Shown here piece by piece: positions 5,287-27,424 of a stretch of DNA of 64,000 nucleotides. The DNA is taken from contig CAKUBG010000013.1 of assembly GCA_934636825.1 (NCBI GenBank), positions 1,234-65,233 on the forward strand, in the 5' to 3' direction. Position numbers and translations under genes: made by a program. This stretch comes from an uncultured bacterium. GTDB taxonomy: Bacteria > Vulcanimicrobiota > Xenobia > Xenobiales > Xenobiaceae. How positions within the stretch are numbered: position 1 is the stretch's first letter; the number at the start of each line of letters is the position of its first letter. The notes below the pieces were generated by a model that had not been told where the DNA came from, ran no database searches, and saw only the letters and a program-made list of their open reading frames with translations.

Positions 5287-5311
5287 GGCAGAGCGCGTGC
5301 TGCCTTGTTTG
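5287..5311 (+). terminator. Possible weak Rho-independent terminator after bamA
   Basis: GGCAGAGCGCGTGCTGCC stem-loop followed by TTGTTTG. Confidence 0.3.
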
Positions 5312-5389
5312 TAAGATTAGTAATAACTCCCCATTGATCTTAAGTTGGGGGGTAGTTCCCAAGAACCCTTAAAGGAGGTTCAGGTTTAA

Positions 5390-6391: not shown

Positions 6392-6404
6392 TTGAGGTGT
6401 TTTT

Positions 6405-7844: not shown

Positions 7845-7853
7845 GAGGTCGCG

Positions 7854-8411: not shown

Positions 8412-8433
8412 AAAGAGCGGAGGGATAAACAAT

Positions 8434-11661: not shown

Positions 11662-11852
11662 GTTTTATTCAGACTCACATTTGAGTAAGGTCTGTCTATA
11701 CCGATACGGTTGGGCAGACTTTATTTTTTGTCGTTTGATAAATGTGTGCTTAGGTTGCTTCGGGCCAAAAATGGAGGAATAGCCAATTTTATATAAAAAA
11801 GTTGGCGGAGTTTTTAATCAATTATATTACAGTCGTTGGGGAGAACATTTCC

Positions 11853-12686
11853 ATGTGCAGAGCGCAGCGTACTTTAGCTGAAGAGATCTCTTTTGAGGGA
11901 GTGGGTATCCATACCGGCAAGCTCGGTCACTTAACTATAAAACCTGCTTCTGTCGATCATGGAATCGTTTTTTTGAGTGGCGGGGAATATATTCCGGCTA
12001 CTTATGAGTATGTTGTCTCTACTAAACGTTCTACTTCTTTAGGAAAAGGCCAAGCTGTAGTCGGCACGGTAGAACACTTGATGGCTGCTTTAGGTGGCTT
12101 GTCCATAGATAATGCGTTAATAGAAATCGATGGGCCAGAAGTGCCTATTTTAGACGGCTCTGCTTTGCCTTTTTGCCAAGCTATAGAAAAGGCTGGTATT
12201 GTAAATCAGAAAAATAGCGAAGTAGAAGATTATTATATTGAAGAGCCCATTTTTGTTGCTGAAGGTGAAGGGTTGGTTTTAGCCATGCCTGACTCGCAGT
12301 ACAACTTGGAGGGAGCCGTTAGCTACGCCAGTCCGCAAGTTGGCAATCAGCGCTTCCGCTACTGCGGTTATGACAACTTTGTTACTCATGTCGCTCCCGC
12401 TCGCACTTTCGGTTTTTGGTCAGAAGTAAAAAGTTTGTTGGAAAATGGCCTGGGGCAGGGTGGCGATCTTTCCAACGCTTTGATTTATGATCGTCCCGGT
12501 TTTGATGTGGAAAGCGCTCAACGTTTCGTCAACGAGCCTGTGCGCCATAAAGTTTTGGATTTAGCTGGCGATCTTTGTTTGCTTGGTCGTCCTTTGCGGG
12601 CTTTTGTCTTAGCTGTTCGTGCCGGTCATAAATTGCATGTGGAATTCGTTCGTAAAGTCGCTGAGGAGATGCATAAAAATGCTTAA
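11853..12686 (+). CDS. lpxC: UDP-3-O-acyl-N-acetylglucosamine deacetylase LpxC; start revised
   Basis: RBS GGGGAGA. LpxC N-terminus (RAQRTLAEEISFEGVGIHTGK). Family-typical length. Confidence 0.8.
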   Translation: MCRAQRTLAEEISFEGVGIHTGKLGHLTIKPASVDHGIVFLSGGEYIPATYEYVVSTKRSTSLGKGQAVVGTVEHLMAALGGLSIDNALIEIDGPEVPILDGSALPFCQAIEKAGIVNQKNSEVEDYYIEEPIFVAEGEGLVLAMPDSQYNLEGAVSYASPQVGNQRFRYCGYDNFVTHVAPARTFGFWSEVKSLLENGLGQGGDLSNALIYDRPGFDVESAQRFVNEPVRHKVLDLAGDLCLLGRPLRAFVLAVRAGHKLHVEFVRKVAEEMHKNA

Positions 12687-13104
12687 TATCAAAGATATCT
12701 TACATAGGACTCCCTACAAGAGCCCCATGCTTTTTGTTGATGTTGTCACTGAACTCAACTTCCCGGAAATCTCAGGCTATAAAAATATAACTATGGCTGA
12801 GCCCCATTTCGAAGGCCATTTTCCCGGCAATCCCATTATGCCAGGTGTTTTGCAAATGGAAGCTTTAGCTCAGCTTTGTTGGTTGCTTTATGTCGGTAAT
12901 GACAATGCCCCCATAAAAGCTTCTACTTTAGATTTAGTTGGGGCTAAAAAATTCAAATTTAGAACTCAAGTAGTGCCGGGGGATCGCCTCGAACTTTATG
13001 CCAAAGAAATAGAACGTGATGACAAAAATGTTACTTTGTCTGTACGCGCTCGTGTAGGAGAAAATACCGCTTGCGAAGGTGTGCTTACTTTCGCTTGGCA
13101 TTAG
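12679..13104 (+). CDS. fabZ: 3-hydroxyacyl-ACP dehydratase FabZ; start revised
   Basis: RBS GAGGAG. Hot-dog-fold motif FEGHFPGNPIMPGVLQMEALAQ. Overlaps the lpxC stop by 8 nt. Not fused to lpxC. Confidence 0.8.
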   Translation: MLNIKDILHRTPYKSPMLFVDVVTELNFPEISGYKNITMAEPHFEGHFPGNPIMPGVLQMEALAQLCWLLYVGNDNAPIKASTLDLVGAKKFKFRTQVVPGDRLELYAKEIERDDKNVTLSVRARVGENTACEGVLTFAWH

Positions 13105-13218
13105 AAGCGGTCTTTGTCGCTCGTTTGTTGTAGGAAACTGCCTTTTAGCGGGCGAAATAAGCGCATTTTCACGTGTTAGCTTTTAACGGATACGGAATTG
13201 TTGGGAGGAAGCATAAGT

Positions 13219-14157
13219 ATGAAGCCAATTAGAGTTGGCGTAGTCGGTATCGGCAGTATGGGTAGGAACCATGCTCGAGTGTGTTCTGAGCTGCCTCAGA
13301 TCGAATTGGCAGGTATTGTAGATCTTGATGAAGTCAAGGTCGCTCCTTTAGCTGGGCAATACGGTACGAAATATTATAAAGATTATCAAAGCCTTTATGG
13401 AAAAATTGACGGCGTAGTTATCGTTTCTCCTACTCCGCTCCACTACCAAATAGCTCAAGATTTTTTAGAGCATGGCATACATGTTTTAGTTGAAAAACCC
13501 ATTACTGTGGAAGTGGAACAAGCCAAGCGTTTGGTGGCTTTGGCCAAAGAGAAGAACTTAATTCTGCAAGTCGGCCATTTGGAACGCTTCAATCCTGCTA
13601 TTCTTAAGCTTAAAGAAATGGTGGGCACTCCCGTTCTTATCGAATGTCATCGCCTGTCTGGCCCTACGACCCGCAACTTAGATGTTGGTATTATTTGGGA
13701 TTTAATGATCCACGATTTTGATATCCTTTTGAGTTTGTATAAGTCTCCGGCGGAAGAAATTCATGCCATGGGCGCTTCTATCTACTCTAAATTTGAGGAT
13801 GTGGCTCATGTACAAATCCGTTTTGAGTGTGGCGCTGTAGCTAGTTTGGTAGCCAGCCGCAACTCTGGTGAGCGTAAGCGTTGCTTAAAAATTACCGAGA
13901 ATACCGGGCGTGTATTCTCCTTGGATTTCATCAATCAAACTTTGACAATTTCGCGTCCAGGGCCGGACGGTCGCCCTCTGGAACCTGAATTTGTCAATAT
14001 CGAAAAAGAAGAACCTCTCCGTTTGGAACTTAGTAACTTTGCGGATTGTGTTGCCAACCATAAAGAGCCTGTCGTTTCTGGAGAAGACGGTGAGCGCGCT
14101 TTGGAGTTGGCTGTGCATGTATTGGAAAATATGCATAGGATTAAGATTGCCGAGTAG
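13219..14157 (+). CDS. Gfo/Idh/MocA-family NAD-dependent oxidoreductase; GnnA-like candidate
   Basis: RBS GGGAGG. Rossmann N-terminus (IRVGVVGIGSMGRNHARV). Located between fabZ and lpxA. Confidence 0.75.
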   Translation: MKPIRVGVVGIGSMGRNHARVCSELPQIELAGIVDLDEVKVAPLAGQYGTKYYKDYQSLYGKIDGVVIVSPTPLHYQIAQDFLEHGIHVLVEKPITVEVEQAKRLVALAKEKNLILQVGHLERFNPAILKLKEMVGTPVLIECHRLSGPTTRNLDVGIIWDLMIHDFDILLSLYKSPAEEIHAMGASIYSKFEDVAHVQIRFECGAVASLVASRNSGERKRCLKITENTGRVFSLDFINQTLTISRPGPDGRPLEPEFVNIEKEEPLRLELSNFADCVANHKEPVVSGEDGERALELAVHVLENMHRIKIAE

Positions 14158-14205: not shown

Positions 14206-15015
14206 GTGATTCATCCCAGCGCTATAGTACACCCCAAGGCACGCATAGGCGAAGGTGTAGAAATCGGCCCCTTTTCCATTATCGGTGAGAATGTCGAAAT
14301 TGGTGACGGTACCAAAATTATGTCGTCTGTAGTGATTGATGGTTGGACGACTATAGGTAAAAACAATCGTATCTATCCTGGCGTGACTATTGGCTTAGCT
14401 CCTCAAGATTTTAGCTATAAAGGGCAGCGCTCTTTTGTAACTATTGGCGACAATAACGATTTTCGCGAATATGTAACTATACACAGAGCTGCCGATGAAG
14501 ATGGACTTACTTCGGTAGGCAGTGGCAATCTCTTAATGGCCAATGTTCATATCGCTCACAATTGTCGTATAGGAAATCAGGTGACTATGGCCAACTACGC
14601 CGGCTTAGCTGGTCATACTGTTGTTGACGATCAAGCTGTTTTGGGTGGTTTGGTTGGTATTCATCAGCATACTCGTATCGGTCGTCTTTGTATGGTAGGC
14701 GGTTGCTCTAAGATCAATAAAGATTTACCTCCTTTTAGTATTGTTGACGGCAATCCGTGCCGTTTATTTAGTATGAACTTTAGAGGTATGCGCCGTCGCG
14801 ACATATCTAAAGAAAGCCGCTTGGCTATACAAAAAGCTATTTTTATCCTTGGCTCCATGGGCTTAACTATTAGTGCCGCTATAGAACGCATTGATAGTGA
14901 ATTAGAGCACACTCCTGAGGTTGAGCAATTCTTAGACTTCTTGCGCGCCCCTTCGCGCATGGGAGTGCTCAATAAAGCCAGCAATGTGGGGGCCAGAACC
15001 CACAATAACGCCTAG
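14206..15015 (+). CDS. lpxA: UDP-N-acetylglucosamine O-acyltransferase LpxA
   Basis: GTG start after GAGAGGAG. Hexapeptide repeats (MIHPSAIVHPKARIGEGVEIGPFSIIGENVEIG). LpxA-like C-terminal helical domain. Confidence 0.8.
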   Translation: MIHPSAIVHPKARIGEGVEIGPFSIIGENVEIGDGTKIMSSVVIDGWTTIGKNNRIYPGVTIGLAPQDFSYKGQRSFVTIGDNNDFREYVTIHRAADEDGLTSVGSGNLLMANVHIAHNCRIGNQVTMANYAGLAGHTVVDDQAVLGGLVGIHQHTRIGRLCMVGGCSKINKDLPPFSIVDGNPCRLFSMNFRGMRRRDISKESRLAIQKAIFILGSMGLTISAAIERIDSELEHTPEVEQFLDFLRAPSRMGVLNKASNVGARTHNNA

Positions 15016-17479
15016 TTGGTGCATTTTGGCCAATAACCAGCATCAGCAATTATCCGCCTGCCCGCAGCTTACGGTTGCTATAATCGCTGTAGAGCCTTCC
15101 GGAGATCTTCACGGAGGAAATTTGGCTAAGGCTCTGCTGGCAATTAACCCCAACTTGAAGTTTGTCGGTGTAGGCGGTTCGCATATGGCCGCGTCGGGAG
15201 TGAAGCTGTGGTTAAAAACCACTGATATGGCTATCATCGGTCCCGGCGGGGCTCTTTTGTGTTTGCACAAGTATATATATCACTACTTATATGTGCGCTC
15301 TCATTTGCTTGAAGCTAAGCCCCATCTGACTATTTTGATAGATTGTCCGGCTGTAAATATGCGTTATGCTGGTCTTTTAACCAGATATGGCTACAATTCT
15401 GTCTATTATTTCCCACCTTCAGCCTGGACAACGAGCGAAGCTCGCTTGCGTCAAATTTTTAGTCGCACTGACAGAGTTATTTGCACTTTTTTAAGCAATG
15501 CCGAAAATTACCGTCGTTTCGGTATGGAAGTTGATTTTTTCGGCCATCCCTTGTTGGATATGCCCGAATTGTCTATATCTCCTGAAGAGGCCAAGCGTAT
15601 TCTTGGTCTATCCGGAGAAAATATTTTAGCTATTTTGCCTGGCAGTCGGACGCCGGAAATAAAGTATCTTTTACCTACTTTTTTGAATATCGCTGAAAAA
15701 TTGCATGCAGAAAAGCCTGATTTGCAAGTTTTGATTCCGTGCGCTACCGAAAACTTGCACAGCCAAATCACCGAGATAATGGGAGATAGGTTCCCTTATG
15801 TACGCCTTCTTGATGGTCAGTCTCGTTTGGCTCTTTTATCTAGTCGAGCCGCTCTCATGAGCTCCGGTACGGCCAGTTTAGAAGCTGCTATTTTGGGCAC
15901 TCCTATGGTTTTAGCCTATAAGTTGTGCCCATTCGATGCTGCTGTGGGACGTTTTTTGCTTTGGGCCCATATTTTAAAAATAGATCATATCGGCTTGCCA
16001 AGTTTGGTAGTAGGTAAACGCATTGTTCCTGAATTTATTCAAGATGAAGTTAATGCCGAAAATATACTTCCACATTTGCGCAATTTTATGTCTGATACTC
16101 CTGAACGCCGTCAAATAAAACAAGATCTTTTGGATATGAAAAATTCTATGGGATCTCCGGGAGTTGTTGATAAAATAGCGGCTTCACTTTACGAGCGCAT
16201 TAAAAATAATGCTGAGCGCCGTCAAAAAGAGCCGTTTGATATTGTCATTACTTCTAATTCTCCTGGTGAAGTTGCTGCTTGGGTACGTCGCACTGTGGCC
16301 CATTTGGAAATAGCCAATCAAGGATTGTTTAGAGTAATAGTTGCTCTAGTTCCTTGCCCTTATGCTTCTGGGGCTGAAGCGGAAGTAGCTGCCTCTTTAC
16401 CCGGTGTGTCTGTTGTTTTGAAGCCTAGTCAGACTTTGCGCTTAATGCTTGGTTTATTTAACGATTTTAAATTTCGGCAGCGCGGCGTAGTTGTTTTCTT
16501 AGGCGGTGACTTACTCCATGCCAAAATTTTAGCTTGGCGTTTACGATACAAATCGGTGGCTTATGCCGTTAGATATAATTACTTTTTGCCTTATTTTGAC
16601 AAAGTAGCTGCTTCGGATACTGCTTTAGCTAAGGAGTTGGAAGAGGCTGGAATAAAGGAAGTTGTCAGTATTGGCAATTTGAGCATTGATGGTGTTTTTT
16701 CCGAAGTAGATCGCGAGTCTGCTTTGCAAAATAAAGAAAAGCGTGGCTCCTGGAAGATCGGTATTTTTCCGGGATCGCGTTTCTTGCACACTAAGATAGC
16801 TTTGGGAGTCTTTTTACGGGTAGCTGCTCTCATAAAGACGCGTTATCCTCAAGTAGATTTCGTACTCTCAGTCTCTCCTTTTGTTTCTAAAGCCAGATTA
16901 GAATCTGCTCTTTACCATCCTATAAGTTTGGGATTGCCTATAGCTAAAGGAAAGTTGGTAAGATCTGATTGTATTTTGGTAGATTGTCCCCATGAAGCTG
17001 AAGGTACAGCTGGACGTAGTTTTGAGGTAGAAGTGCTTTGGGGCCATCCTTACCAGGCTATTGCTGAAATTGATATGGCTCTTACTATTCCCGGAACTAA
17101 TACCGGAGAATTGGGAAGTTGCGGAAAACCGATGGTAGTGGGGCTGTCAGCTGATGCCTCTTTACCAAGAGGCGGAATCGGTGGTCTCTTAGAAAATGCG
17201 CCTCTTCTTTCTAAGATAAAACGTTACTTGCGTTTGCGCTCCTATGCTCGCCATGGTTTTGCTGCTATACCAAATCGTATCGCTTCACGTTTAGTCGTTC
17301 CTGAAGTTTTGGTTAAAAAAGATACTTCTGTTTTGGCTAAGCCTATTTTTGAATGGATTGAAGATCCTAAAAAATATGCGCAAACGGTTGAAGATCTGAA
17401 AAAGACTATGGGAACTACCGAAGGGGCCGGCCAACGCATGGCCGAGCTTATTTTAACAGCGGTGGCTTTAGAACAATGA
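14984..17479 (+). CDS. lpxB: Lipid-A-disaccharide synthase LpxB fused to a second ~430-aa LpxB-related domain
   Basis: LpxB N-terminal signature (TVAIIAVEPSGDLHGGNLAKAL). 831 aa, versus ~380 aa for stand-alone LpxB. Exact start uncertain: ATG 14984 overlaps lpxA by 32 nt and a TTG at 15026 is an alternative. Confidence 0.7.
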   Translation: MWGPEPTITPSWCILANNQHQQLSACPQLTVAIIAVEPSGDLHGGNLAKALLAINPNLKFVGVGGSHMAASGVKLWLKTTDMAIIGPGGALLCLHKYIYHYLYVRSHLLEAKPHLTILIDCPAVNMRYAGLLTRYGYNSVYYFPPSAWTTSEARLRQIFSRTDRVICTFLSNAENYRRFGMEVDFFGHPLLDMPELSISPEEAKRILGLSGENILAILPGSRTPEIKYLLPTFLNIAEKLHAEKPDLQVLIPCATENLHSQITEIMGDRFPYVRLLDGQSRLALLSSRAALMSSGTASLEAAILGTPMVLAYKLCPFDAAVGRFLLWAHILKIDHIGLPSLVVGKRIVPEFIQDEVNAENILPHLRNFMSDTPERRQIKQDLLDMKNSMGSPGVVDKIAASLYERIKNNAERRQKEPFDIVITSNSPGEVAAWVRRTVAHLEIANQGLFRVIVALVPCPYASGAEAEVAASLPGVSVVLKPSQTLRLMLGLFNDFKFRQRGVVVFLGGDLLHAKILAWRLRYKSVAYAVRYNYFLPYFDKVAASDTALAKELEEAGIKEVVSIGNLSIDGVFSEVDRESALQNKEKRGSWKIGIFPGSRFLHTKIALGVFLRVAALIKTRYPQVDFVLSVSPFVSKARLESALYHPISLGLPIAKGKLVRSDCILVDCPHEAEGTAGRSFEVEVLWGHPYQAIAEIDMALTIPGTNTGELGSCGKPMVVGLSADASLPRGGIGGLLENAPLLSKIKRYLRLRSYARHGFAAIPNRIASRLVVPEVLVKKDTSVLAKPIFEWIEDPKKYAQTVEDLKKTMGTTEGAGQRMAELILTAVALEQ

Positions 17480-18141
17480 AAATTCCTGATAAAAACAAAA
17501 AGATGGCTCCGCCTTTTATTTTTAAATGGCGCGGTCTCATAATGGCTATGGTTACCGCAATTATTTTGATAGTAGCTCACCCAACTGTAGGGTCGTGTTG
17601 CTGGGGAATAGCGCTGGCTATTTGGGGCGAAATGTTACGCTCTTGGGCTTTAGGATGGACTGGAGAGCATACGCGCAGCCAAGAGCTGAAAGCTTCGTTT
17701 TTGGTAACTAGTGGCCCTTATAAATATATACGCAACCCGCTTTATTTGGGAAATATCCTAACCGGGTGCGGCGTTATGGTTGCCTCGTGTGGTGCCCTTT
17801 CGTGGGTGGCCAGCTTAGCTACATGGCTTTTGGGATCTTTCTCTTTGTATGTAGTTTATGCTTCTTGCATAATTTCTGAAGAGGCTTTTCTGGCTGTCCG
17901 TTTTGGCGATATTTTTTTTAACTACAAAGCATGCACACCGGCGATCCTACCCAGTTGGCATTCCATCCCCGAATTTGTAAGAAGCTTTTTTTGCCCTAAT
18001 TGTGGAGCAAATAGCGATAAAGTCTATGAAGGAGAATCCTTCTCCTGGAAGTCGCTTCGTTTCGAGTATAGCACTTGGGGATGGCTGGTTTTTGTATGGC
18101 TGTTTCTTTTTATGAAAGCTGTTGGTAAGCTTCCGCTATAA
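17476..18141 (+). CDS. ICMT/Ste14-family membrane methyltransferase; LmtA-like candidate
   Basis: Multi-TM protein carrying the ICMT motif (YKYIRNPLYLGNIL). ATG overlaps the lpxB stop (ATGA). Confidence 0.65.
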   Translation: MKIPDKNKKMAPPFIFKWRGLIMAMVTAIILIVAHPTVGSCCWGIALAIWGEMLRSWALGWTGEHTRSQELKASFLVTSGPYKYIRNPLYLGNILTGCGVMVASCGALSWVASLATWLLGSFSLYVVYASCIISEEAFLAVRFGDIFFNYKACTPAILPSWHSIPEFVRSFFCPNCGANSDKVYEGESFSWKSLRFEYSTWGWLVFVWLFLFMKAVGKLPL

Positions 18142-19285
18142 TTGCAGCCATTCGCTCAGAGCCTCCTGGAGGCCCGAGTCTCTTGCGTCCGACTTCTGCA
18201 CGCCTTTGTCTTTCAGCTTTGTCTTGGATAAGGTTACATAAAGTTTCGACTATATCTGCATCGCGATCTTCGCTGACAATAAGTGAATCTCCAAGTAAGC
18301 CCTTTTGACGTGCTCTGTACCATTTTAAGTGGCTCATACCTCCCGGCTCGTAAGCTACTACTGGAATGCCCCAACCGGCGGCTTGCTCGTGGGCTGTTCC
18401 GGCTAGCCCCAAAGCTACTTGACTATATTGCAACACATCAGCTAAGTGGCCTTTTATTAAAAAAAAGCGGGCTCGAGGAGTAGTAGCTTCGTCTTTATAA
18501 GTTAAAGTATGCCAGCCGGGATAAGGGCAATCGCCCAAAGTAAAGTCAGAGCAGGCTTGAGCTAATTTTTCGGTATCTATAGAGGGGGCTACAGCTATAA
18601 AAGCACATATGTCCTTACCCAAACGTTTGGCTAACATTTGGCTCAATTTGAGTAAACGAGGCAACACTTGGTAGGTAGCTTTTCTGCTACCGGGGAAAAG
18701 AGCTAAGCCTATTTCTTTAGCTTCATCTAATGAAAAGTCCAAATCTTGGGGGATTAAACCGTCCATCATGGCATTGCCTACCCAAGCTGCTTTTACACCT
18801 TTTTGGCGTAGGCTTTCGGCAGTGGGTTCATCTCTAACTATGGAATGTACCTGGAAAGTTCTGAGGATGAAAGCTTCCAAAGTAGAATAAGGATGATGAT
18901 AATCCGATTTTGCCGTGCCTATAAAAGTAATGGGGCGTATGCCGGAAAGTATAGCCAATATAACCGGCCATAAATCACCTACAGCTACAATTTGATCAAA
19001 TTTCGAACGTTGACGGCGTAACCAAGCAATTTGCTTAAGCGTTAAGGAAAATAAACCTCCGCTTATGTCTTTCCATAAATTACGCCAATCTTCCTGAATA
19101 AGCCCTCCGCTAGGCATAAGTTGTCTGGGGCCCACGACTGGAGCTAAGCCCTCATAAGCAGAACCTTCTCCAACCAGAGGCATAGCTTCTCGGGGGAGCG
19201 ATTCCGGCAAGTCGGCTATAATCTGGCTGGCAATAGAATCTTCGCCTGCTCCGTTGGATATAAATAAGACACGATGAGAAGCCAT
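18110..19285 (-). CDS. LpxB-related glycosyltransferase-like protein (lipid-A-disaccharide-synthase-related family)
   Basis: 391 aa. N-terminal motif VLFISNGAGEDSIAS parallels DIVITSNSPGEVAAW at the start of the second domain of the lpxB fusion. Last gene of the minus-strand lipid A operon. Confidence 0.55.
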   Translation of the reverse strand: MASHRVLFISNGAGEDSIASQIIADLPESLPREAMPLVGEGSAYEGLAPVVGPRQLMPSGGLIQEDWRNLWKDISGGLFSLTLKQIAWLRRQRSKFDQIVAVGDLWPVILAILSGIRPITFIGTAKSDYHHPYSTLEAFILRTFQVHSIVRDEPTAESLRQKGVKAAWVGNAMMDGLIPQDLDFSLDEAKEIGLALFPGSRKATYQVLPRLLKLSQMLAKRLGKDICAFIAVAPSIDTEKLAQACSDFTLGDCPYPGWHTLTYKDEATTPRARFFLIKGHLADVLQYSQVALGLAGTAHEQAAGWGIPVVAYEPGGMSHLKWYRARQKGLLGDSLIVSEDRDADIVETLCNLIQDKAERQRRAEVGRKRLGPPGGSERMAAIIAEAYQQLS

Positions 19286-19303: not shown

Positions 19304-20149
19304 TTAGCGTAAATTTAGTAATTGATATTCGCTCAATTCTGGATGCTCGAAATTATAATCTAATTTGCCAATATAGTGAGCCCAAGAACCAGTTTGGACT
19401 ATAAAATTGTCGTTGATTTTTATCGGCTCGGCAAGCACGGTGTGACTGTGACCGCCCAGAATCCAGGTGCCTTTGGGCAATTGGGCTGCCAAAACTTTAT
19501 CTCTTTCCAGTCCCAAGTGGCTTAAAACGATTAGGCGCAATGGCTTATCTAACAACTTAGAACAACGTTCGGCTAAAAGTGGCAAAACCGTCTCAGCTTC
19601 AAAAAATCTGAAGCCGAAAATCTTTTCCCAAATGGCATTGTGAGGGTATTGGACAGGAACCGCAGCCAAGAGAAGCAGTGGGTAGTGTTTTGACCAGTTT
19701 TTGTTATACAGTGACAAAGCTGAAACCCAGCGTTTGGAAGATAAGTCTCGCCACAATTTCGCTTTACGCCAGCTACTGTCTTGGCAATTTACTTCCGGAA
19801 CTGAGTTCAGTTGTTTTATCAATTGTTCGTCAGTTAATTTTCCGTCTTGTCTAATGTCGACAAGATTGCTGCAAAGCAAAGGAAAAGAGCGCTGTGCAGC
19901 TCTTTTGTCCAAAATGCGACGCTGATAATTAAACTCTCTATTGCCCATAGCCATAGAGGCACAAAAAATTGAGCCCATTTTTTCTAAATTTGGCTCATAA
20001 TTTTTCCACACTGTATTGGAGCCAAGCAAAGCATCGCCACTGTCAAAATATAGAGCTTGACCTTGGGCTAATGATTGCTTGGCATTGGCTTTTAACCAAT
20101 CTAGGGCTTCTGCGTGCCCATGCATGTCATTTGTATGATAGATGAGCAC
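19304..20149 (-). CDS. Calcineurin-like metallophosphoesterase resembling the UshA/5'-nucleotidase N-terminal domain
   Basis: Metal-ligand motifs HTNDMHGH, FDSGDALLGSN and GGHSHT. 281 aa, with no C-terminal nucleotidase domain. Confidence 0.7.
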   Translation of the reverse strand: MLIYHTNDMHGHAEALDWLKANAKQSLAQGQALYFDSGDALLGSNTVWKNYEPNLEKMGSIFCASMAMGNREFNYQRRILDKRAAQRSFPLLCSNLVDIRQDGKLTDEQLIKQLNSVPEVNCQDSSWRKAKLWRDLSSKRWVSALSLYNKNWSKHYPLLLLAAVPVQYPHNAIWEKIFGFRFFEAETVLPLLAERCSKLLDKPLRLIVLSHLGLERDKVLAAQLPKGTWILGGHSHTVLAEPIKINDNFIVQTGSWAHYIGKLDYNFEHPELSEYQLLNLR

Positions 20150-20168: not shown

Positions 20169-20729
20169 CTAGCTTTTTTGGGCAGATCGCTCTTTAGCTA
20201 CTTGATCGTATACTTGGCGATAACGTTCCAAACCGATAGCGTTCATAATTACGGCTCCGTAACCTATAAGCCATCCCACTCCTGCTAAAGCTGGGCCACC
20301 TATTGAAAGGCCTAACCAAAGCCCCAAACAGCCAAAAATTAGGCTGGCCAACATGGGCTTAGAGTCGAGGGATATGGAATAACCGAAAGATACCCCTATA
20401 AGAGCTCCTACCAAACCGTAGTAGGCTCCTTTAGATATATCGGCTGAAGTAGTGGCTACGGCTACACTAGCTTTGGCAGCTTGAATTAAAGGAGAGGCAG
20501 ATTGTCCTACGTCGATTATTGAGTTGGCTCCCCATAAGAAGCCCATTAACAATCCTATACCGGCGAAACCATAGCAATACCAACGTTTTTGATCTTTGGT
20601 AAGAAAAGCCGTAGGAGCTTCAGATGATTGTTGCTCTGAAGATACAGAAGACGTCTTGTTGTTATCGACTTGAGATTGCATATTCTTTTTGTCTTTTTTT
20701 TTGTTTTCTTTAGAAGAGGTTGAACTCAT
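20169..20729 (-). CDS. Small membrane protein with a Ser/Gln-rich N-terminus and Gly-zipper TM helices
   Basis: Three or four predicted TM helices with GxxxG-type motifs. No recognisable family. Confidence 0.5.
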   Translation of the reverse strand: MSSTSSKENKKKDKKNMQSQVDNNKTSSVSSEQQSSEAPTAFLTKDQKRWYCYGFAGIGLLMGFLWGANSIIDVGQSASPLIQAAKASVAVATTSADISKGAYYGLVGALIGVSFGYSISLDSKPMLASLIFGCLGLWLGLSIGGPALAGVGWLIGYGAVIMNAIGLERYRQVYDQVAKERSAQKS

Positions 20730-20737
20730 AATTTATG

Positions 20738-21703
20738 TCAGTCCTTCGGAGAAAGTTTAGCCAGCTGTTGAATCTGTTTCCAATGCTTGAGAGGAAGCTG
20801 GCGCATGGCTGTTTGGCGCATGGAAGTTTTGTGGGTATCAATGGGATCGCCAGACCAAATTGCTTGGCCTGCTGGTACATCCTTGTCGACGCGAGAACGG
20901 GCTGCTACTGTGGCAAAATCTCCGATCTGGCGGCCTTCTTCCACTAAGCATTGACCGGCTGTAATAGATAATTTACCTAAACTTACATTTTGTTGTAAGC
21001 AATTTTGAGAAATGACAATAGCTAGGGGAGCGATTTTTGCGCCTTTTTCAAAGCAAGCTAAATTATCTATACGGACCCCGTCTTGAATAAACGCGTGGTC
21101 GCCGATAAAGCAGCGAGCACCTATTTCTATATCGTTCCCCAAAACGGAATCGTCTTCAATAATGGTAAGTGGGCCTACCAAACTCTTTGTGCCCAATTTT
21201 ACGTTTGCACCCACAGAAACGCCTGGCATAAGACGCGTATTGGCTCCTATAGAGCTATTGCTGCCGATACTGGCATGGGCCATAATTTGGCAATTGTCAG
21301 CAACTATAGCATTGTCGCCGATAATAGCAAAAGGGCCAATATATGCTGTTGGTGCAATTTGAGCCGAGTCGCTGACTTGGGCATTAGGATGAATGCCTGG
21401 CTCGTGCAAATGCGTAGGGTAGAATAATCCCAAAAGTATAGCAAAGGCAATGCGGGCATTTTTTACCTTAATAGCAGGTATCTCCGTATCTAGCTCTTCA
21501 GGGATGATGACTGCGGAAAAACCGAGAGATTCAGCTTCTTTCAGGCCGTTCTCTTTTTCTGCAAAAGTTAAAGCCTGGCTAAGAACGTGCTGGGAAGCTG
21601 CATCTAATCCCGTAACAACATTAATAGTGTGGGAAGCGTATTCTGGATTGTTCAGGCTGCCTTGCAAAAGTTCAGCCAATTCTCCTAAAGTTTTTACCAC
21701 CAT
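20738..21703 (-). CDS. lpxD: UDP-3-O-acylglucosamine N-acyltransferase LpxD (full length)
   Basis: N-terminal uridine-binding-like domain followed by hexapeptide repeats (PTAYIGPFAIIGDNAIVADNCQIMAHASIGSNSSIG) and a C-terminal helical region. 10-nt overlap with the upstream TldD-like gene. Confidence 0.8.
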   Translation of the reverse strand: MVVKTLGELAELLQGSLNNPEYASHTINVVTGLDAASQHVLSQALTFAEKENGLKEAESLGFSAVIIPEELDTEIPAIKVKNARIAFAILLGLFYPTHLHEPGIHPNAQVSDSAQIAPTAYIGPFAIIGDNAIVADNCQIMAHASIGSNSSIGANTRLMPGVSVGANVKLGTKSLVGPLTIIEDDSVLGNDIEIGARCFIGDHAFIQDGVRIDNLACFEKGAKIAPLAIVISQNCLQQNVSLGKLSITAGQCLVEEGRQIGDFATVAARSRVDKDVPAGQAIWSGDPIDTHKTSMRQTAMRQLPLKHWKQIQQLAKLSPKD

Positions 21704-23013
21704 AATTCCGGATAATCACTCCAAGTTTCTGCTGGATCTATATCAGCTTCTTCTAAAGTTAAATTGCGTACAGCAATAGGCGGGCACATGGTACGTCCGT
21801 TTAGAACTGACTCATAGCCTAAACCTAGCAAATTAGCACCGAATAAATCGGTATAGTTGGCTCTGACTATAAATTGAGGCACTCTGCATATCGGCTTTCC
21901 GTGTTGCAAAAGAAAAGCTATTTCGCAGCGTCGGGCAAATTGTCCCGGCTTTTTTAAATGCGGAGGCAGAGGAGTTAGGCGATCCAAAAGAATACCAAAA
22001 TCTGCTTTGGCACATAATTCTCCCAAAGAAGCTGTGCCTCTTTCCAAGCATAAATTTGAGTAACCTGGCCTGGGTGGTTGGCCCCAAGGACGCACTGCCG
22101 AGCCTTGGGGATTTATTTTACACTCCCTAGCCGTTTTTAAGTCGTAGAGCCCTTTAACTAATTCACCTTGCTGAATCAGAGGCAGTCTTATTTTAGTAAT
22201 TCCTTCACCGTCGAAAGGAACTGTGCCAAAGCCACCTGGTAAAGTCCCGTCGTCGATAATGTTTATGCAAGGTGCCAGCCAAGGACGCTTCTGGGGCAAG
22301 GTGCCGAACAAAGGCGAGTCGGCATAAAGCATATCTTGAGTAAAATCTTCTAACAATTTTCCGCAAGCACTCGAAGTAAAAACTCCAGGTAGTAAATAAC
22401 TGTCCGGCCAGGCCATTTCACTGGAATGGACAGAACGCCACATTAGCTTGCACAGCAAATCGGAAGGGGAATGCTGGGCGGAGGTACTGTAAATAGCATC
22501 TCCTACAGGGATATTTTCATTGGAATTTAGGGTGAGCAAATGGAGAATACGGCTGGCACAACGCTCTCCGCTTCTGGTTGTCAGTTTAAAAGTATGTTGA
22601 AGCAATCTGGCACTTAACGAAAAGCGTCTGTGGGGCAGAAGAGAAGGAAGCATAAAATCCAAGCTTTGAATCAGTGTTTGGAACTTAGTAATCGAATCTT
22701 CTAATTGCTGTGAGGCTTCTGCTGCTCCTGTAGTCAGAGACGGCGCTATGAGCCCTTTTTGTGAAAAAGAACCGCGTCTTCCTGTAGCTGCATTCTGGAC
22801 TGCTTTTTGTAGCAAGTCGTTGATAGAAAATTCGCCCTCAGACCAGACATATCCGAGCCTGCCTTCTACGTTTAAGCGCAAACCTAAACCGGATCTAAAA
22901 TTGCGTTGCTCCGGCTGAGCCAAATTTACTTCCGTATATACTTCTTCGGCAACTTCAGCATCTCTGGCCATACCAAGAGCTTTTAAAAGCAATTGTTTTG
23001 CATAACTGGCCAT
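21694..23013 (-). CDS. TldD/PmbA-family metallopeptidase-like protein
   Basis: N-terminal TldD/PmbA pattern (AEVAEEVYTEVNLAQPEQRNFRSGLGLRLNVEGRLGYVW). C-terminal GFGTVPFDGEG motif. Confidence 0.7.
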   Translation of the reverse strand: MASYAKQLLLKALGMARDAEVAEEVYTEVNLAQPEQRNFRSGLGLRLNVEGRLGYVWSEGEFSINDLLQKAVQNAATGRRGSFSQKGLIAPSLTTGAAEASQQLEDSITKFQTLIQSLDFMLPSLLPHRRFSLSARLLQHTFKLTTRSGERCASRILHLLTLNSNENIPVGDAIYSTSAQHSPSDLLCKLMWRSVHSSEMAWPDSYLLPGVFTSSACGKLLEDFTQDMLYADSPLFGTLPQKRPWLAPCINIIDDGTLPGGFGTVPFDGEGITKIRLPLIQQGELVKGLYDLKTARECKINPQGSAVRPWGQPPRPGYSNLCLERGTASLGELCAKADFGILLDRLTPLPPHLKKPGQFARRCEIAFLLQHGKPICRVPQFIVRANYTDLFGANLLGLGYESVLNGRTMCPPIAVRNLTLEEADIDPAETWSDYPELWW

Positions 23014-25479: not shown

Positions 25480-25876
25480 TTGACTACATCCTTTTTTTTA
25501 CCTATCCGGAGGCAATTTTCTGATTTTCTGAACTTTGCTAAAAAGCGCAAAAGAAATCGGTTCTGTCGACTAGAATTCCGCTGCTGGCAAAGCGCATGTG
25601 TGAGCGGAAAAACTAATTCCGAAATCGAAAAGCATAAGGGTGTGCATATTAGACAAAAAGCGACTATCACCTTTTGCCTAGGTCGATTTCGACATATTGA
25701 AAGATTGAATTTAGGCAGCCTAGTTGATGGACTGGCCGCAACATATATTGATAGAAGTTCAATCCTCTGAATGGCAAGGAAAAAAAATGTTGTTTTTTGT
25801 ATATGATAAAGTGTGGGGGCGAAGAAAAAGGTTTCGCTATAGGGCGTTGGCTCGGAGAGATGCTGGAGGAAAATAT

Positions 25877-26563
25877 ATGGTTAGATTCAGAGGACAACTT
25901 TGGATATGGCTGGCAATGTTGTTTACGATGTGTGGTTGTGGCGGAGGCGAAACTACTACAAACAATGCAGAGCAATATGCCAAAACTCCTGCAGCAGCCC
26001 TTTCCGAACAGTCTGAAAGCCAACAGATTGGAAACGTTCAAAAGCAAAGCCAGGCTTCGGGTGAAACAGGCAAGCAAGCTGAAATCGTAAAAGATAAAGA
26101 AGGGACTTCTGCTACTTCCATGTCCAACGATCAGGGAGTCGATTCTATATCTATTGCGGCTAAAGGCGAATCGCCTTGGAGTTTAAAAGCCAGCCGAATC
26201 GACTACGATGATGTAAGTAAAAAAGCTCGAGCTTCTTCTATTACTTGGAATTTACTTGATAAAGAGGGACATTCTCTTCTTCAGCTTCAGGGCGATGCTG
26301 CTGTAGTTAATACAGAAACTCAGGGCTTGGCTTTTGAAGGGCCTGTTCATGCTGTCGGTCCCAAGGGTGAAAAGATTGTTTGTAACAAATTGATTTGGGA
26401 CAGCAAGTCCAGAAAGTTGCGCGGCTCGCATGGAGTAAAGGTAGTTCGTGAAGGATCTACTATGACTGGGAAAAATATGGTGGCTTCTCCGGACCTCAAG
26501 CATGTTGAAGTTGAAGGCGATGTGCGTGTTTATTTCAATTCCGGTTTAGAATCGAACCAATAA
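25877..26563 (+). CDS. LptC/LptA-family (OstA-like beta-jellyroll) LPS transport protein; start revised
   Basis: Strong RBS GGAGGAAAATAT precedes the ATG. N-terminal hydrophobic anchor. Immediately upstream of lptB. C-terminal region of alternating hydrophobic beta strands. Confidence 0.55.
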   Translation: MVRFRGQLWIWLAMLFTMCGCGGGETTTNNAEQYAKTPAAALSEQSESQQIGNVQKQSQASGETGKQAEIVKDKEGTSATSMSNDQGVDSISIAAKGESPWSLKASRIDYDDVSKKARASSITWNLLDKEGHSLLQLQGDAAVVNTETQGLAFEGPVHAVGPKGEKIVCNKLIWDSKSRKLRGSHGVKVVREGSTMTGKNMVASPDLKHVEVEGDVRVYFNSGLESNQ

Positions 26564-26581
26564 AAGTATGGGGAATAACAC

Positions 26582-27415
26582 ATGGCTATCAAGGCTGAAG
26601 GATTAGTAAAAATATATAAAGATCGGCGAGTGGTTGATGGTGTAAATTTTGAGGTTAATCCTGGAGAGGTCGTGGGGCTTTTGGGAGCTAATGGAGCCGG
26701 CAAAACGACCACGTTCTATATGGTAGTGGGATTGATTAGGCCCAATGGAGGCAGAATTTTTCTTAACGGTCAAGATGTTACCCATTTGCCTATGCATGTA
26801 CGCGCACGCTTGGGAATAGGATATTTGCCTCAGGAGGCTTCCGCTTTTCGCAAACTTAGCGTAGAAGATAATCTTCGTCTGTTATGGCAGATCAATGGAG
26901 TATCTAAAAAAGAACAGGCCGAGCGCCTGGAAAGGCTGTTGGATGAATATCAATTGCACAAAGTTCGTCGCAGCAAAGCAGTAGAATTGTCCGGAGGCGA
27001 GAGACGCCGTTTGGAAATTGCCAGATCGCTGGCTATAAAGCCACAATTCCTTCTGCTTGACGAGCCGTTCTCTGGTGTAGACCCCATAGCCGTGGCTTCT
27101 ATTCAGAAAATTATTCGTAGTGTTAAAGCTCAAGGCTTGGGAGTGCTTATTACAGACCATAATGTGCGCGAGACTTTAGCTATCACAGATAGAGCTTATA
27201 TTATTCGTGAGGGCCGGATTCTTGTTTCCGGAACGGCAGTAGAATTAGCTAACAACCCAGATGCTCGTAAATACTATTTGGGAGAAGCTTACCGAACCGG
27301 GTTTGAAAATGAACAAACCGCCGCAGAAGTAGCTAAAGCTAAAATTGAGGAAGAGGCTGATAGCTTGAAAATGGCCGAAGAAGAAAAACTGCACCAAGCT
27401 GAAAAGGCAGACTAA
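26582..27415 (+). CDS. lptB: LPS export ABC transporter ATP-binding protein LptB
   Basis: Walker A GANGAGKTT. Signature LSGGERRR. Walker B LLLDEP. LptB-type C-terminal extension. Confidence 0.85.
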   Translation: MAIKAEGLVKIYKDRRVVDGVNFEVNPGEVVGLLGANGAGKTTTFYMVVGLIRPNGGRIFLNGQDVTHLPMHVRARLGIGYLPQEASAFRKLSVEDNLRLLWQINGVSKKEQAERLERLLDEYQLHKVRRSKAVELSGGERRRLEIARSLAIKPQFLLLDEPFSGVDPIAVASIQKIIRSVKAQGLGVLITDHNVRETLAITDRAYIIREGRILVSGTAVELANNPDARKYYLGEAYRTGFENEQTAAEVAKAKIEEEADSLKMAEEEKLHQAEKAD

Positions 27416-27424
27416 AAATACGTT

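What the first reader, a model, noticed from the sequence alone, without database searches (positions are those of the whole stretch)
19304..20149. UshA-like metallophosphoesterase in the lipid A operon is a candidate non-canonical UDP-2,3-diacylglucosamine hydrolase
No LpxH-type gene (~240 aa, D-x-H...GD-x-x-DRG) and no LpxI-type gene (DUF1009) is recognisable in this otherwise nearly complete lpx locus. This 281-aa calcineurin-like phosphoesterase (HTNDMHGH, FDSGDALLG, GGHSHT) is instead co-operonic with lpxD and an LpxB-related protein. Established knowledge: the step is catalysed by three unrelated enzymes in different lineages (LpxH, LpxI, and chlamydial LpxG, itself a calcineurin-like phosphoesterase unrelated to LpxH). 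Inference: this ORF may be a fourth or LpxG-like solution.
Basis: inference. Interest (0 to 1): 0.6.

Follow-up and report, generated by a model that had tools for sequence, protein, structure and literature searches.

The report
Candidate fourth lipid X-forming hydrolase
A small cytoplasmic phosphoesterase related to the catalytic half of E. coli UshA sits inside the lipid A gene cluster of a whole bacterial phylum (Eremiobacterota) and is the best candidate for the enzyme that makes lipid X there, a step for which no known enzyme gene was found in the locus.

Summary
Window 19304-20149 (-) is a real 281-aa gene with every metallophosphoesterase metal motif. It lies in an operon with an lpxD paralogue and a TIGR03492 LpxB-related glycosyltransferase. 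No LpxH, LpxI, LpxK or WaaA domain occurs anywhere in the 64 kb.

The protein is a signal-less, single-domain homologue of the UshA/5'-nucleotidase N-terminal domain. It is not an LpxH, LpxG or LpxI family member. Its family appears nearly confined to Eremiobacterota. In 83 loci it lies next to lpxB (78 loci) and immediately upstream of the TIGR03492 gene (80 loci, median 4-nt overlap). In two divergent lineages the two proteins are fused.

All members replace the catalytic His of motif III with Arg (GNRE). In published surveys of LpxH-like metallophosphoesterases that change was seen only in LpxH, whose Arg clamps the 1-phosphate of lipid X.

The best reading (about 0.55) is a UDP-2,3-diacylglucosamine pyrophosphatase that stands in for LpxH/LpxI/LpxG and probably works with the TIGR03492 protein.

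Three things remain unproven:
- No activity has been measured.
- Genome-wide absence of lpxH/lpxI could not be tested.
- A sister GNRE subfamily lies outside lpx loci.

This is a new variant of a known kind and can be tested by complementing an E. coli lpxH mutant.

The parts
19304..20149 (-). Target: 281-aa cytoplasmic single-domain metallophosphoesterase. It is homologous to the UshA/5'-nucleotidase N-domain and has motif III = GNRE. It is the candidate UDP-2,3-diacylglucosamine pyrophosphatase.
   Evidence: ORF and translation. PF00149. UshA profile match E 3e-27. AF2 pLDDT 97 with Foldseek top hits UshA/CD73. Invariant D8 H10 D36 D39 N70 R71 E72 H211 H234 H236.
19736..19840 (-). Clade-specific insertion of about 35 aa (residues ~104-138) between motifs III and IV. 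It is absent from most family members.
   Evidence: Alignment A1 shows it only in sequences at least 49% identical to the target. It is modelled with high confidence as short helices and a strand.
18110..19285 (-). TIGR03492 'lipid-A-disaccharide synthase-related' GT-B protein. It is the invariant downstream partner of the phosphoesterase.
   Evidence: TIGR03492 275 bits, above the 219 cut-off. hhalign to LpxB gives probability 98.6% with the PGSR pyrophosphate motif conserved. It is adjacent in 80/83 loci. It is fused to the phosphoesterase in P0241 and P0334.
20169..20729 (-). 186-aa predicted membrane protein of unknown function between lpxD-like and the phosphoesterase.
   Evidence: No Pfam or NCBIfam hit. 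Found at the same position in 19 Xenobia/UBP9-type loci.
20738..21703 (-). Divergent LpxD paralogue (has the LpxD N-terminal domain plus hexapeptide repeats).
   Evidence: PF04613 and Hexapep. NF002060 158 bits, below the 207 cut-off.
21694..23013 (-). PmbA/TldD-like protein. It is in the operon upstream of lpxD-like, with an upstream 230-aa unknown at 23015-23707.
   Evidence: PF19289 E 9e-31. Conserved at this position in 13 loci of the window's clade.
11802..12686 (+). lpxC
   Evidence: PF03331 E 7e-85; TIGR00325 228 bits.
12619..13104 (+). fabZ
   Evidence: NF000582 118.6 bits, above the 113 cut-off.
13198..14157 (+). Gfo/Idh/MocA oxidoreductase that resembles UDP-GlcNAc 3-dehydrogenase (GnnA-like). 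It hints at a GlcN3N-type lipid A backbone.
   Evidence: NF040723 E 3e-80 (270 bits, below cut-off). A DegT aminotransferase lies next to the homologue in L002.
14206..15015 (+). lpxA
   Evidence: NF003657 338 bits.
14984..17479 (+). lpxB (aa ~29-400) fused to a second, very divergent LpxB-like GT-B domain (aa ~406-831).
   Evidence: TIGR00215 263 bits for the N-terminal half. The C-terminal half hits TIGR03492 and lpxB weakly. The halves are separate genes in L002, L085 and L087. Catalytic residues E15 S17 D98 PGSR E281 are kept in the LpxB alignment A3.
17476..18141 (+). ICMT/PEMT-family membrane methyltransferase (weakly LmtA-like).
   Evidence: PF04140 and PF04191. TIGR04571 LmtA E 2.7e-10, far below cut-off. 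Conserved in 24 loci.
8908..9621 (+). Short LpxD (237 aa) that lacks the N-terminal LpxD domain.
   Evidence: NF002060 225 bits, above the 207 cut-off, matching profile positions 101-334.
25724..28555 (+). lptC, lptB, lptF/G (LPS export).
   Evidence: PF06835, PF00005, PF03739. The same genes follow the cluster in other Eremiobacterota loci.
2066..8907 (+). bamA and OmpH/Skp-like chaperone genes that open the outer-membrane supercluster.
   Evidence: PF01103/POTRA and PF03938.

Best explanation
The ORF encodes a cytoplasmic, Mn/Zn-type dimetal phosphoesterase. It descends from the catalytic N-terminal domain of the UshA/5'-nucleotidase family and has lost that family's signal peptide, its C-terminal nucleotide-specificity domain and its Asp-His catalytic dyad.

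[quoted passage not shown] The products would be UMP and 2,3-diacylglucosamine-1-phosphate (lipid X), the acceptor that LpxB needs. It would therefore fill the LpxH/LpxI/LpxG step in Eremiobacterota.

Proposed chemistry, by analogy with UshA's UDP-sugar hydrolase reaction and with LpxH:
- A metal-bridged hydroxide attacks the alpha-phosphate.
- The invariant Arg71 of GNRE salt-bridges the beta-phosphate, which becomes the 1-phosphate of lipid X.

The enzyme probably works in a physical complex with the adjacent LpxB-related GT-B protein (TIGR03492). That protein keeps the UDP/pyrophosphate-binding motifs of LpxB.

Shown: fold, motifs, gene context, fusions, and lack of known alternatives in the locus. 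Inferred: substrate, products and the role of the partner.
For: 1. **Active site.** All metal-binding motifs are invariant in alignment A1 and in 83/83 loci.
2. **Right chemistry in the parent family.** The protein is homologous to the UshA N-domain: profile E 3e-27, Foldseek E 1e-15. UshA is a UDP-sugar hydrolase and CDP-alcohol hydrolase, so it cleaves NDP-X pyrophosphates (PMC10454023).
3. **His-to-Arg change.** Motif III is GNRE, not GNHE. UshA H117 aligns with R71 and UshA D120 with N/H74. Two papers report this His-to-Arg change as seen only in LpxH among the metallophosphoesterases they compared, with the Arg bound to the 1-phosphate of lipid X (PMC5016852; PMC3087551). Among the 144 of the best 150 library representatives that were examined, every ~240-aa single-domain protein had GNRE. 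The long 5'-NT/CpdB-type proteins had GNH[ED], with isolated exceptions (P0371, P0418).
4. **Not a nucleotidase design.** There is no room for a signal peptide, since motif I starts at residue 6. There is no 5_nucleotid_C domain. Nucleotidase activity of UshA needs its cognate C-domain, while phosphoanhydride cleavage depends on it less (PMC8071527).
5. **Synteny.** In 83 loci at 30-89% identity the phosphoesterase co-occurs with T3492 (80 loci), lpxB (78), lpxA (78), lpxD (75), fabZ (71) and lpxC (70). The phosphoesterase stop to T3492 start distance has a median of -4 nt and is within 30 nt in 72/80 loci. Gene calls show 1-4-nt overlaps.
6. **Fusions.** Two MPE::T3492 fusion proteins are only 39% identical to each other. 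The AF2 model of one has pTM 0.86 and a confident linker.
7. **No alternative in the locus.** No LpxH, LpxI, LpxK or WaaA domain occurs in the 64-kb window or among the conserved neighbour families. No E. coli LpxH-like ORF occurs in 1.5 Mb of related loci.
8. **The product is needed.** Eremiobacterota LpxB keeps its catalytic residues, including the base D98, so it needs a lipid X-type acceptor.
9. **The phylum makes this kind of lipid.** It is diderm and rich in 3-hydroxy fatty acids (PMC9758169).
Against: - No biochemical or genetic data exist.
- Whole-genome absence of lpxH/lpxI/lpxG in these organisms was not testable here. Only the window and +/-10-kb loci were seen.
- The tightest and sometimes only partner is the uncharacterised TIGR03492 protein, not LpxB. 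In L091 the pair stands alone, far from lpx genes. The enzyme could therefore serve a T3492-specific reaction.
- A sister subfamily of short GNRE[TAS]H phosphoesterases lies outside lpx contexts, so GNRE alone does not specify the substrate.
- Cyanobacteria and Dictyoglomi, which also lack LpxH (PMC3087551), did not show up among named homologues. The gap may therefore be bridged differently in other four-enzyme lineages.
Confidence: 0.55

Rival explanations
1. It is an accessory pyrophosphatase for the TIGR03492 glycosyltransferase rather than the lipid X-forming enzyme. Three versions are possible. It could destroy the UDP by-product (UDP to UMP + Pi) to pull the transfer reaction forward. 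It could trim a UDP-sugar donor. It could act after LpxB on a UDP-linked tetra-acyl disaccharide.
For: - The most conserved and sometimes only neighbour is T3492, with overlapping stop and start codons and natural fusions.
- T3492 keeps the UDP-binding PGSR and GT..E motifs of LpxB, but its acceptor (N-terminal) domain does not align with LpxB.
- The Arg of GNRE would suit any diphosphate substrate.
- The gene order is lpxB-MPE-T3492.
Against: - It leaves the essential lipid X step without any candidate in the cluster.
- Bacterial cytoplasmic GT-B enzymes, including E. coli LpxB, are not known to need a dedicated UDPase (own knowledge).
- A UDPase would still need a uridine pocket, which the lost C-domain normally provides (PMC10454023).
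Confidence: 0.2
2. It is a lipid A or lipid X phosphatase. It would remove the 1-phosphate (or a 1-diphosphate) on the cytoplasmic side and give a phosphate-poor lipid A like that reported for marine Synechococcus.
For: - The 5'-nucleotidase family includes phosphomonoesterases.
- Four-enzyme lineages such as cyanobacteria have lipid A that lacks phosphate (PMC3087551).
- No LpxK was found in the cluster.
Against: - The Asp-His dyad used by 5'-nucleotidases for monoester hydrolysis is lost.
- Nucleotidase-type monoesterase activity in this family depends on the missing C-domain.
- Known lipid A 1-phosphatases are PAP2 enzymes that act at the periplasmic face (own knowledge).
- A PEMT/LmtA-like methyltransferase in Xenobia-type clusters hints weakly that a 1-phosphate persists.
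- The lipid X step would still be unassigned.
Confidence: 0.1
3. It is an ordinary nucleotidase or cyclic-nucleotide phosphodiesterase, as JGI auto-annotation says, and it sits in the lpx cluster by coincidence.
For: JGI names homologues '2',3'-cyclic-nucleotide 2'-phosphodiesterase (5'-nucleotidase family)'. The family has weak sub-threshold hits to CpdB, UshA and SoxB models.
Against: - All NCBIfam hits are far below their cut-offs.
- There is no signal peptide, no 5_nucleotid_C domain and no catalytic His.
- Synteny with lpxB and T3492 is kept across about 80 species at only ~30% identity, plus fusions, which coincidence does not explain.
Confidence: 0.04

Closest known systems
LpxH (UDP-2,3-diacylglucosamine diphosphatase, beta/gamma-proteobacteria; TIGR01854)
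   Same: Both belong to the metallophosphoesterase superfamily. Both are cytoplasmic with no signal peptide and are about 240 aa in most family members. Both replace the motif III His with Arg (GNRD versus GNRE). The proposed reaction is the same: UMP plus lipid X.
   Different: There is no detectable family-level homology: no hit to the LpxH models at E<=10, hhalign probability 2.5%, and no LpxH among PDB profile hits. There is no helical insertion cap between motifs IV and V. The scaffold is UshA/5'-NT-type. The gene is encoded inside the lpx cluster, whereas lpxH usually is not (PMC3087551).
LpxG (Chlamydia CT461)
   Same: Both are calcineurin-like phosphoesterases that fill the step in a lineage lacking LpxH and LpxI. 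LpxG was found because the step was missing, as here.
   Different: LpxG has an N-terminal transmembrane helix, is about 37 kDa, and carries GDxxDR and GNHD motifs. The target starts directly at motif I, has GDALLG and GNRE, and is a UshA-type domain. No direct sequence comparison was possible because no LpxG sequence was available.
UshA / 5'-nucleotidase / CD73 family (N-terminal metallophos domain)
   Same: This is the closest homologue by sequence profile (E 3e-27) and by fold (Foldseek E ~1e-15, TM 0.65-0.72). It has the same dimetal site, and UshA cleaves UDP-sugars to UMP plus sugar-1-phosphate.
   Different: The target lacks the signal peptide, the C-terminal 5_nucleotid_C specificity domain and the Asp-His dyad (GNHEFD becomes GNREFN). 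It is cytoplasmic and is genomically tied to lipid A genes.
LpxI (DUF1009; alpha-proteobacteria and others)
   Same: It is a functional analogue encoded inside the lpxA-lpxB cluster, as this gene is.
   Different: The fold and mechanism are unrelated, since LpxI attacks the beta-phosphate. No PF06230 or PF17930 domain is present here.

Membership tests
Calcineurin-like metallophosphoesterase superfamily (PF00149) | Five metal-binding motifs: DxH, GDxx, GNx[DE], H, GHxH | tested here: met
   PF00149 at 29.5 bits, above the 21.5 cut-off. D8, H10, D39, N70, H211, H234 and H236 are invariant and present in 83/83 loci.
UshA/5'-nucleotidase family | N-terminal catalytic domain homologous to UshA | tested here: met
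   Profile versus PDB: UshA E 3e-27 over profile positions 2-236. Foldseek top hits are UshA, CD73 and YunD.
UshA/5'-nucleotidase family | C-terminal 5_nucleotid_C substrate-specificity domain (PF02872) | tested here: not met
   Only PF00149 was found. The protein ends at residue 281, directly after the N-domain. The canonical architecture is given in PMC10454023.
UshA/5'-nucleotidase family | Secretion signal (periplasmic or cell-wall location) | tested here: not met
   Motif I begins at residue 6 (MLIYHTNDMHGH), which leaves no room for a signal peptide. The same holds across alignment A1.
UshA/5'-nucleotidase family | Catalytic Asp-His dyad in GNHEFD | tested here: not met
   The motif is GNREFN: R71 aligns with UshA H117 and N74 with D120.
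UshA/5'-nucleotidase family | Score above the curated NCBIfam cut-offs for UshA, CpdB, SoxB or Nt5e | tested here: not met
   The best hits are 54 bits against a 550 cut-off and 44 bits against 600.
LpxH | Match to the LpxH models TIGR01854 / NF003743 | tested here: not met
   No hit at E<=10 for the target or P0088. The E. coli LpxH control scored 389 and 364 bits. hhalign probability is 2.5%.
LpxH | His-to-Arg substitution in motif III (GNRD) | tested here: met
   GNRE is invariant. E. coli LpxH has HGNRDF. The significance is described in PMC5016852 and PMC3087551.
LpxH | Helical insertion (cap) domain between motifs IV and V that holds the acyl chains | tested here: not met
   Only about 20 residues separate H211 from G232. 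The clade-specific insertion lies between motifs III and IV. The LpxH architecture is described.
LpxH | UDP-2,3-diacylglucosamine hydrolase activity or complementation of lpxH | not testable with these tools
   This needs an enzyme assay or an E. coli lpxH conditional mutant.
LpxG | N-terminal transmembrane helix | tested here: not met
   LpxG has one. The target starts at motif I.
LpxG | DxH...GDxxDR...GNHD motif set | tested here: not met
   The target has GDALLG and GNRE, against the motifs quoted in PMC4807358.
LpxG | Direct sequence similarity to CT461 | not tested
LpxI | LpxI_N / LpxI_C (DUF1009) domains | tested here: not met
   No such Pfam hit occurs in the target or in any large ORF of the window.

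The most novel reading that the evidence does not exclude
The phosphoesterase and the TIGR03492 protein together form a bipartite (sometimes fused) enzyme. In it, an LpxB-like GT-B domain has taken over the role of the lost UshA C-terminal specificity domain. The GT-B domain binds UDP-2,3-diacylglucosamine through its conserved UDP/pyrophosphate site and presents it to the dimetal centre. Lipid X formation, and possibly the next glycosyl transfer, would then be channelled within one complex. This would be a fourth, independently evolved answer to the lipid X step, with an architecture not seen in LpxH, LpxI or LpxG.
Probability: 0.2. Interest if true: 0.75.

Novelty: new variant of a known kind. 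Interest (0 to 1): 0.62.

Why it matters
The UDP-diacylglucosamine hydrolase step is the one step of the early Raetz pathway that different lineages have solved independently (LpxH, LpxI, LpxG). Several diderm phyla with a 'four-enzyme' lpxA/C/D/B set still have no assigned enzyme for it.

A UshA-derived enzyme that fills the gap in Eremiobacterota would do four things:
- Add a fourth solution to the step.
- Show convergent use of the motif III arginine.
- Give a function to an unnamed family with roughly a thousand representative clusters.
- Give a first handle on the function of the TIGR03492 'LpxB-related' family.

Eremiobacterota are abundant in soil, and the Xenobia lineage occurs in animal guts. 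The hypothesis can be tested directly with the same E. coli lpxH complementation screen that uncovered LpxI and LpxG.

Tried and rejected
- **LpxH membership: rejected.** No LpxH model hit at E<=10, with a positive control. hhalign probability 2.5%. No LpxH in PDB profile or Foldseek hits.
- **LpxG-likeness: rejected** on published descriptors.
- **True UshA/CpdB nucleotidase: rejected.** No signal peptide, no C-domain, no catalytic His.
- **GNRE as a unique marker of the lpx-linked family: rejected.** A sister group with GNRE[TAS]H lies in non-lpx contexts.
- **Fusion as an assembly artefact: rejected.** Two fusions only 39% identical exist.
- **Apparent LpxB-MPE same-ORF case in L047: dismissed** as an ORF-calling effect in high-GC DNA, because only partial domains matched.
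- **Literature: nothing found.** No paper links Eremiobacterota with lpx genes, none mentions TIGR03492, and none describes another metallophosphoesterase for this step. Two paper searches were too broad to be useful.
- **Taxonomy of the sister subgroup** could not be obtained.
Full report
**The observation.** Window 19304-20149 (minus strand) is a 281-aa ORF with a GTG start. A GGAG Shine-Dalgarno lies 8 nt upstream. Its N-terminus coincides with that of its homologues. It is clearly a gene: 235 homologues were found, the closest at E 5e-171 and 89% identity. Pfam assigns only PF00149, Metallophos.

The gene lies in a tightly packed minus-strand operon. The order is a 230-aa unknown, a PmbA/TldD-like protein, an lpxD-like gene, a 186-aa membrane protein, the phosphoesterase, and a TIGR03492 'lipid-A-disaccharide synthase-related' protein. 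Gaps and overlaps run from -10 to +19 nt. No promoter or terminator signal exceeds chance.

This operon converges on a plus-strand operon of lpxC, fabZ, a GnnA-like dehydrogenase, lpxA, lpxB fused to a second GT-B-like domain, and a PEMT/ICMT methyltransferase.

**The wider window.** The whole 64 kb is an outer-membrane supercluster. It carries BamA, OmpH-like chaperones, a short LpxD and the lpx genes, followed by LptC, LptB and LptFG. Pfam scans of all large ORFs found no LpxH, LpxI (DUF1009), LpxK or WaaA domain.

Two corrections apply:
- The lpxD next to the target is a divergent paralogue (158 bits, below the 207 cut-off). The better-scoring LpxD is at 8908-9621.
- LpxG and LpxH are not unrelated. 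Both are calcineurin-like metallophosphoesterases.

**What the protein is.** It is homologous to the N-terminal catalytic domain of the UshA/5'-nucleotidase family.
- phmmer finds E. coli UshA first.
- A 32-sequence family profile hits UshA at E 3e-27 over the entire N-domain.
- An AlphaFold model with pLDDT 97 has UshA, CD73 and YunD as its top Foldseek matches, at E about 1e-15 and TM 0.65-0.72. No LpxH appears in the top 50.

All NCBIfam hits are to UshA, CpdB, SoxB or Nt5e models and are far below their cut-offs. No LpxH model is hit even at E<=10, while E. coli LpxH scores 389 bits as a control. Profile comparison with E. coli LpxH gives 2.5% probability and aligns only motifs I-III.

The protein differs from true UshA-type enzymes in every feature that makes them periplasmic nucleotidases (canonical architecture in PMC10454023):
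- It has no signal peptide, because motif I starts at residue 6.
- It has no 5_nucleotid_C specificity domain.
- The Asp-His dyad of GNHEFD is replaced by GNREFN.

Published domain-swap work shows that UshA's nucleotidase activity needs its own C-domain, whereas cleavage of phosphoanhydrides such as UDP-glucose depends on it less (PMC8071527).

**The arginine.** In alignment A1 the motif III sequence G69-N70-R71-E72 is invariant, and all 83 related loci encode GNRE. An exhaustive profile search of 1.84 billion representative proteins gave 976 hits at E<=1e-30. Of the best 150, 144 were examined. Every ~240-aa single-domain protein among them had GNRE. The long multidomain 5'-nucleotidase/CpdB-type proteins had GNH[ED], apart from isolated exceptions (a 2,025-aa protein that also carries a GNRE, and one with GNQE).

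Two independent papers stress that, among the metallophosphoesterases they examined, His-to-Arg in this motif occurred only in LpxH (GNRD, verified in E. coli LpxH). [quoted passage not shown] The target family has thus acquired the LpxH signature on a different scaffold.

One caveat applies. A sister group of short proteins with GNRE[TAS]H lies in non-lpx neighbourhoods (L088 and L089). The Arg therefore points to a diphosphate-type substrate in general, not to UDP-diacylglucosamine specifically.

**Who has it and where.** Named homologues, and the 80 best of 464 relatives in GTDB species genomes, are almost all Eremiobacterota (Vulcanimicrobiota), including Xenobia/UBP9 and Candidatus Bruticola. 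The closest named relatives of the window's protein, at 60-62% identity, are Candidatus Bruticola (Xenobia). A few MAGs carry other, probably erroneous, labels.

I searched the ORFs of 83 loci with the window's proteins. The phosphoesterase co-occurs with:

| Neighbour | Loci out of 83 |
|---|---|
| TIGR03492 protein | 80 |
| lpxB | 78 |
| lpxA | 78 |
| lpxD | 75 |
| fabZ | 71 |
| lpxC | 70 |

Most of the missing cases are contig ends. Two architectures exist:
- Class Eremiobacteria has lpxD-lpxC-fabZ-lpxA-lpxB-MPE-T3492 on one strand. A WaaL-like ligase, lptC, lptB, lptFG, DUF3084 and a RuvX-like gene follow.
- Xenobia-type clusters add the GnnA-like dehydrogenase, the extra GT-B protein, the PEMT-like methyltransferase and the small membrane protein.

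The distance from the phosphoesterase stop to the T3492 start has a median of -4 nt and is within 30 nt in 72 of 80 loci. Gene calls show 1-4-nt overlaps. In one lineage the pair stands alone, away from lpx genes (L091).

Two full-length MPE::T3492 fusion proteins exist: P0241 (640 aa) and P0334 (650 aa). They are only 39% identical to each other, so the fusion is real and old or recurrent. An AlphaFold model of P0241 has pLDDT 93.5 and pTM 0.86 with a confident junction, which suggests a fixed arrangement of the domains.

None of the conserved neighbour families is LpxH, LpxI, LpxK or WaaA. No ORF in these 1.5 Mb resembles E. coli LpxH.

**The partner.** T3492 has no solved homologue by sequence. 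Profile comparison with LpxB gives 98.6% probability over the donor-binding C-terminal domain. The P-G-S-R pyrophosphate motif and the G-T...E ribose motif are conserved (residue roles from PMC5785501). Its N-terminal (acceptor) half does not align, so it looks like an active UDP-dependent GT-B with a different acceptor or a different role.

The canonical LpxB proteins of these organisms keep E15, S17, the catalytic base D98, PGSR and E281. They should therefore still need a lipid X-type acceptor.

**Most likely function.** LpxA, LpxC and LpxD make UDP-2,3-diacyl-GlcN, or its GlcN3N analogue if the GnnA-like enzyme is what it seems. LpxB needs part of this pool converted to the 1-phosphate (established Raetz-pathway knowledge).

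The only hydrolase conserved in the cluster is this enzyme. It comes from a family whose founding member is a UDP-sugar hydrolase that releases UMP and sugar-1-phosphate (PMC10454023). It is cytoplasmic. It carries the LpxH-type arginine.

I therefore consider it most likely (about 0.55) that it is the UDP-2,3-diacylglucosamine pyrophosphatase of Eremiobacterota. A metal-activated hydroxide would attack the alpha-phosphate while Arg71 holds the beta-phosphate, and the enzyme would work in complex with T3492.

The cultured member of the phylum, V. alpinus, has an outer membrane and abundant 3-hydroxy iso-C13/C14 fatty acids, consistent with a lipid A-type molecule (PMC9758169).

**Rivals.**
- *An accessory pyrophosphatase for T3392's reaction (0.2).* Read T3492. 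It might act as a UDPase, trim a donor, or cleave a UDP-linked disaccharide after LpxB. This fits the very tight coupling to T3492 and the gene order, but it leaves the lipid X step unassigned.
- *A cytoplasmic lipid A/lipid X phosphatase giving phosphate-free lipid A (0.1).* This fits the absence of LpxK and the cyanobacterial precedent. The loss of the monoesterase dyad and C-domain argues against it, as does the presence of an LmtA-like methyltransferase in Xenobia-type clusters (weak hit).
- *A generic nucleotidase or cNMP phosphodiesterase, as JGI annotates it (0.04).* The conserved context and fusions are hard to reconcile with this.

**Limits.**
- There are no activity data.
- I could not scan a whole Eremiobacterota genome for lpxH, lpxI or lpxG.
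- No LpxG sequence could be obtained for a direct comparison.
- Literature searches found no paper linking Eremiobacterota with lpx genes, none mentioning TIGR03492, and no other metallophosphoesterase proposed for this step. This is absence within the searchable library, not proof of novelty.

**Comparison with known systems and verdict.** The enzyme would work like LpxH and LpxG: a metallophosphoesterase that releases UMP and lipid X. It is a member of neither family, nor of LpxI. By descent it belongs with the UshA/5'-NT N-domain but fails that family's other defining features.

I class it as a new variant of a known kind: a candidate fourth, independently recruited enzyme for the lipid X step, with an unusual obligatory LpxB-like partner. 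Interest is 0.62. A lipid A specialist would find it notable, and it can be tested directly by the complementation approach that identified LpxI and LpxG.

Noticed in passing
window 14984-17479 (+): lpxB is fused in frame to a second, very divergent LpxB/TIGR03492-like GT-B domain (aa ~406-831). The two halves are separate genes in other Xenobia-type loci (L002, L085, L087). In L016 the second domain is instead fused to the PEMT-like methyltransferase. These organisms therefore carry three LpxB-like modules.
   Followed up: partly
P0241 (locus L086 5314-7236) and P0334: These are natural fusions of the phosphoesterase with the TIGR03492 protein (640 and 650 aa). They are only 39% identical to each other. 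The AF2 model of P0241 has pTM 0.86.
   Followed up: yes
window 8908-9621 (+) and 20738-21703 (-): There are two LpxD-like genes. The short one (237 aa) passes the NCBIfam LpxD subfamily cut-off but lacks the N-terminal LpxD domain. The full-length one next to the phosphoesterase is divergent and below cut-off.
   Followed up: partly
window 17476-18141 (+): An ICMT/PEMT-family membrane methyltransferase has a weak resemblance to Leptospira LmtA, the lipid A 1-phosphate methyltransferase. It is conserved in Xenobia-type clusters. Its 3' end overlaps the convergent TIGR03492 gene by 32 nt.
   Followed up: no
window 9772-11661 (+): A 629-aa protein with no Pfam or NCBIfam hit sits between lpxD and lpxC. 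Proteins of similar size (561-596 aa) occupy the same slot in L002, L003 and L087.
   Followed up: no
window 13198-14157 (+): A Gfo/Idh/MocA oxidoreductase resembles UDP-GlcNAc 3-dehydrogenase (GnnA-like). In L002 a DegT aminotransferase (GnnB-like) lies beside the homologue. This suggests a 2,3-diamino-glucose lipid A backbone in this lineage. No aminotransferase was seen in the window.
   Followed up: partly
window 24934-25296, inside ORF 23830-25479 (-): A 69-bp tandem repeat (5.3 copies, 87% matches) encodes a Pro/Gln-rich repeat (…PQPRPMQPGYPPQQQGAAQPGR…) in a 549-aa protein with a TPR-like region and a C-terminal membrane segment.
   Followed up: partly
L088 10001-10789; L089 10001-10756: A sister subfamily of short UshA-N-domain proteins has GNRE[TAS]H and an extra GNLG motif. 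It lies outside lpx clusters: in L088 it follows a Gfo/Idh/MocA gene and a HAD hydrolase gene. Its function and taxonomy are unknown.
   Followed up: partly
window 28633-30026 (+) and related loci: A DUF3084 protein and a RuvX-like protein follow lptFG here and in about 50 other Eremiobacterota loci. They appear to be fixed members of the envelope supercluster.
   Followed up: no
loci L004, L018, L042, L064, L068, L080, L082: Several MAGs that carry this Eremiobacterota-type cluster are labelled in NCBI as Riflebacteria, Burkholderiales, Melainabacteria, proteobacterium, Verrucomicrobiia or Rhodospirillales. These are probably taxonomic mislabels or mis-binned contigs.
   Followed up: no
window 39772-43320 (+): The pyruvate:ferredoxin oxidoreductase gene stands out in composition, with GC 0.49-0.52 against about 0.44 for the rest of the window.
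   Followed up: no
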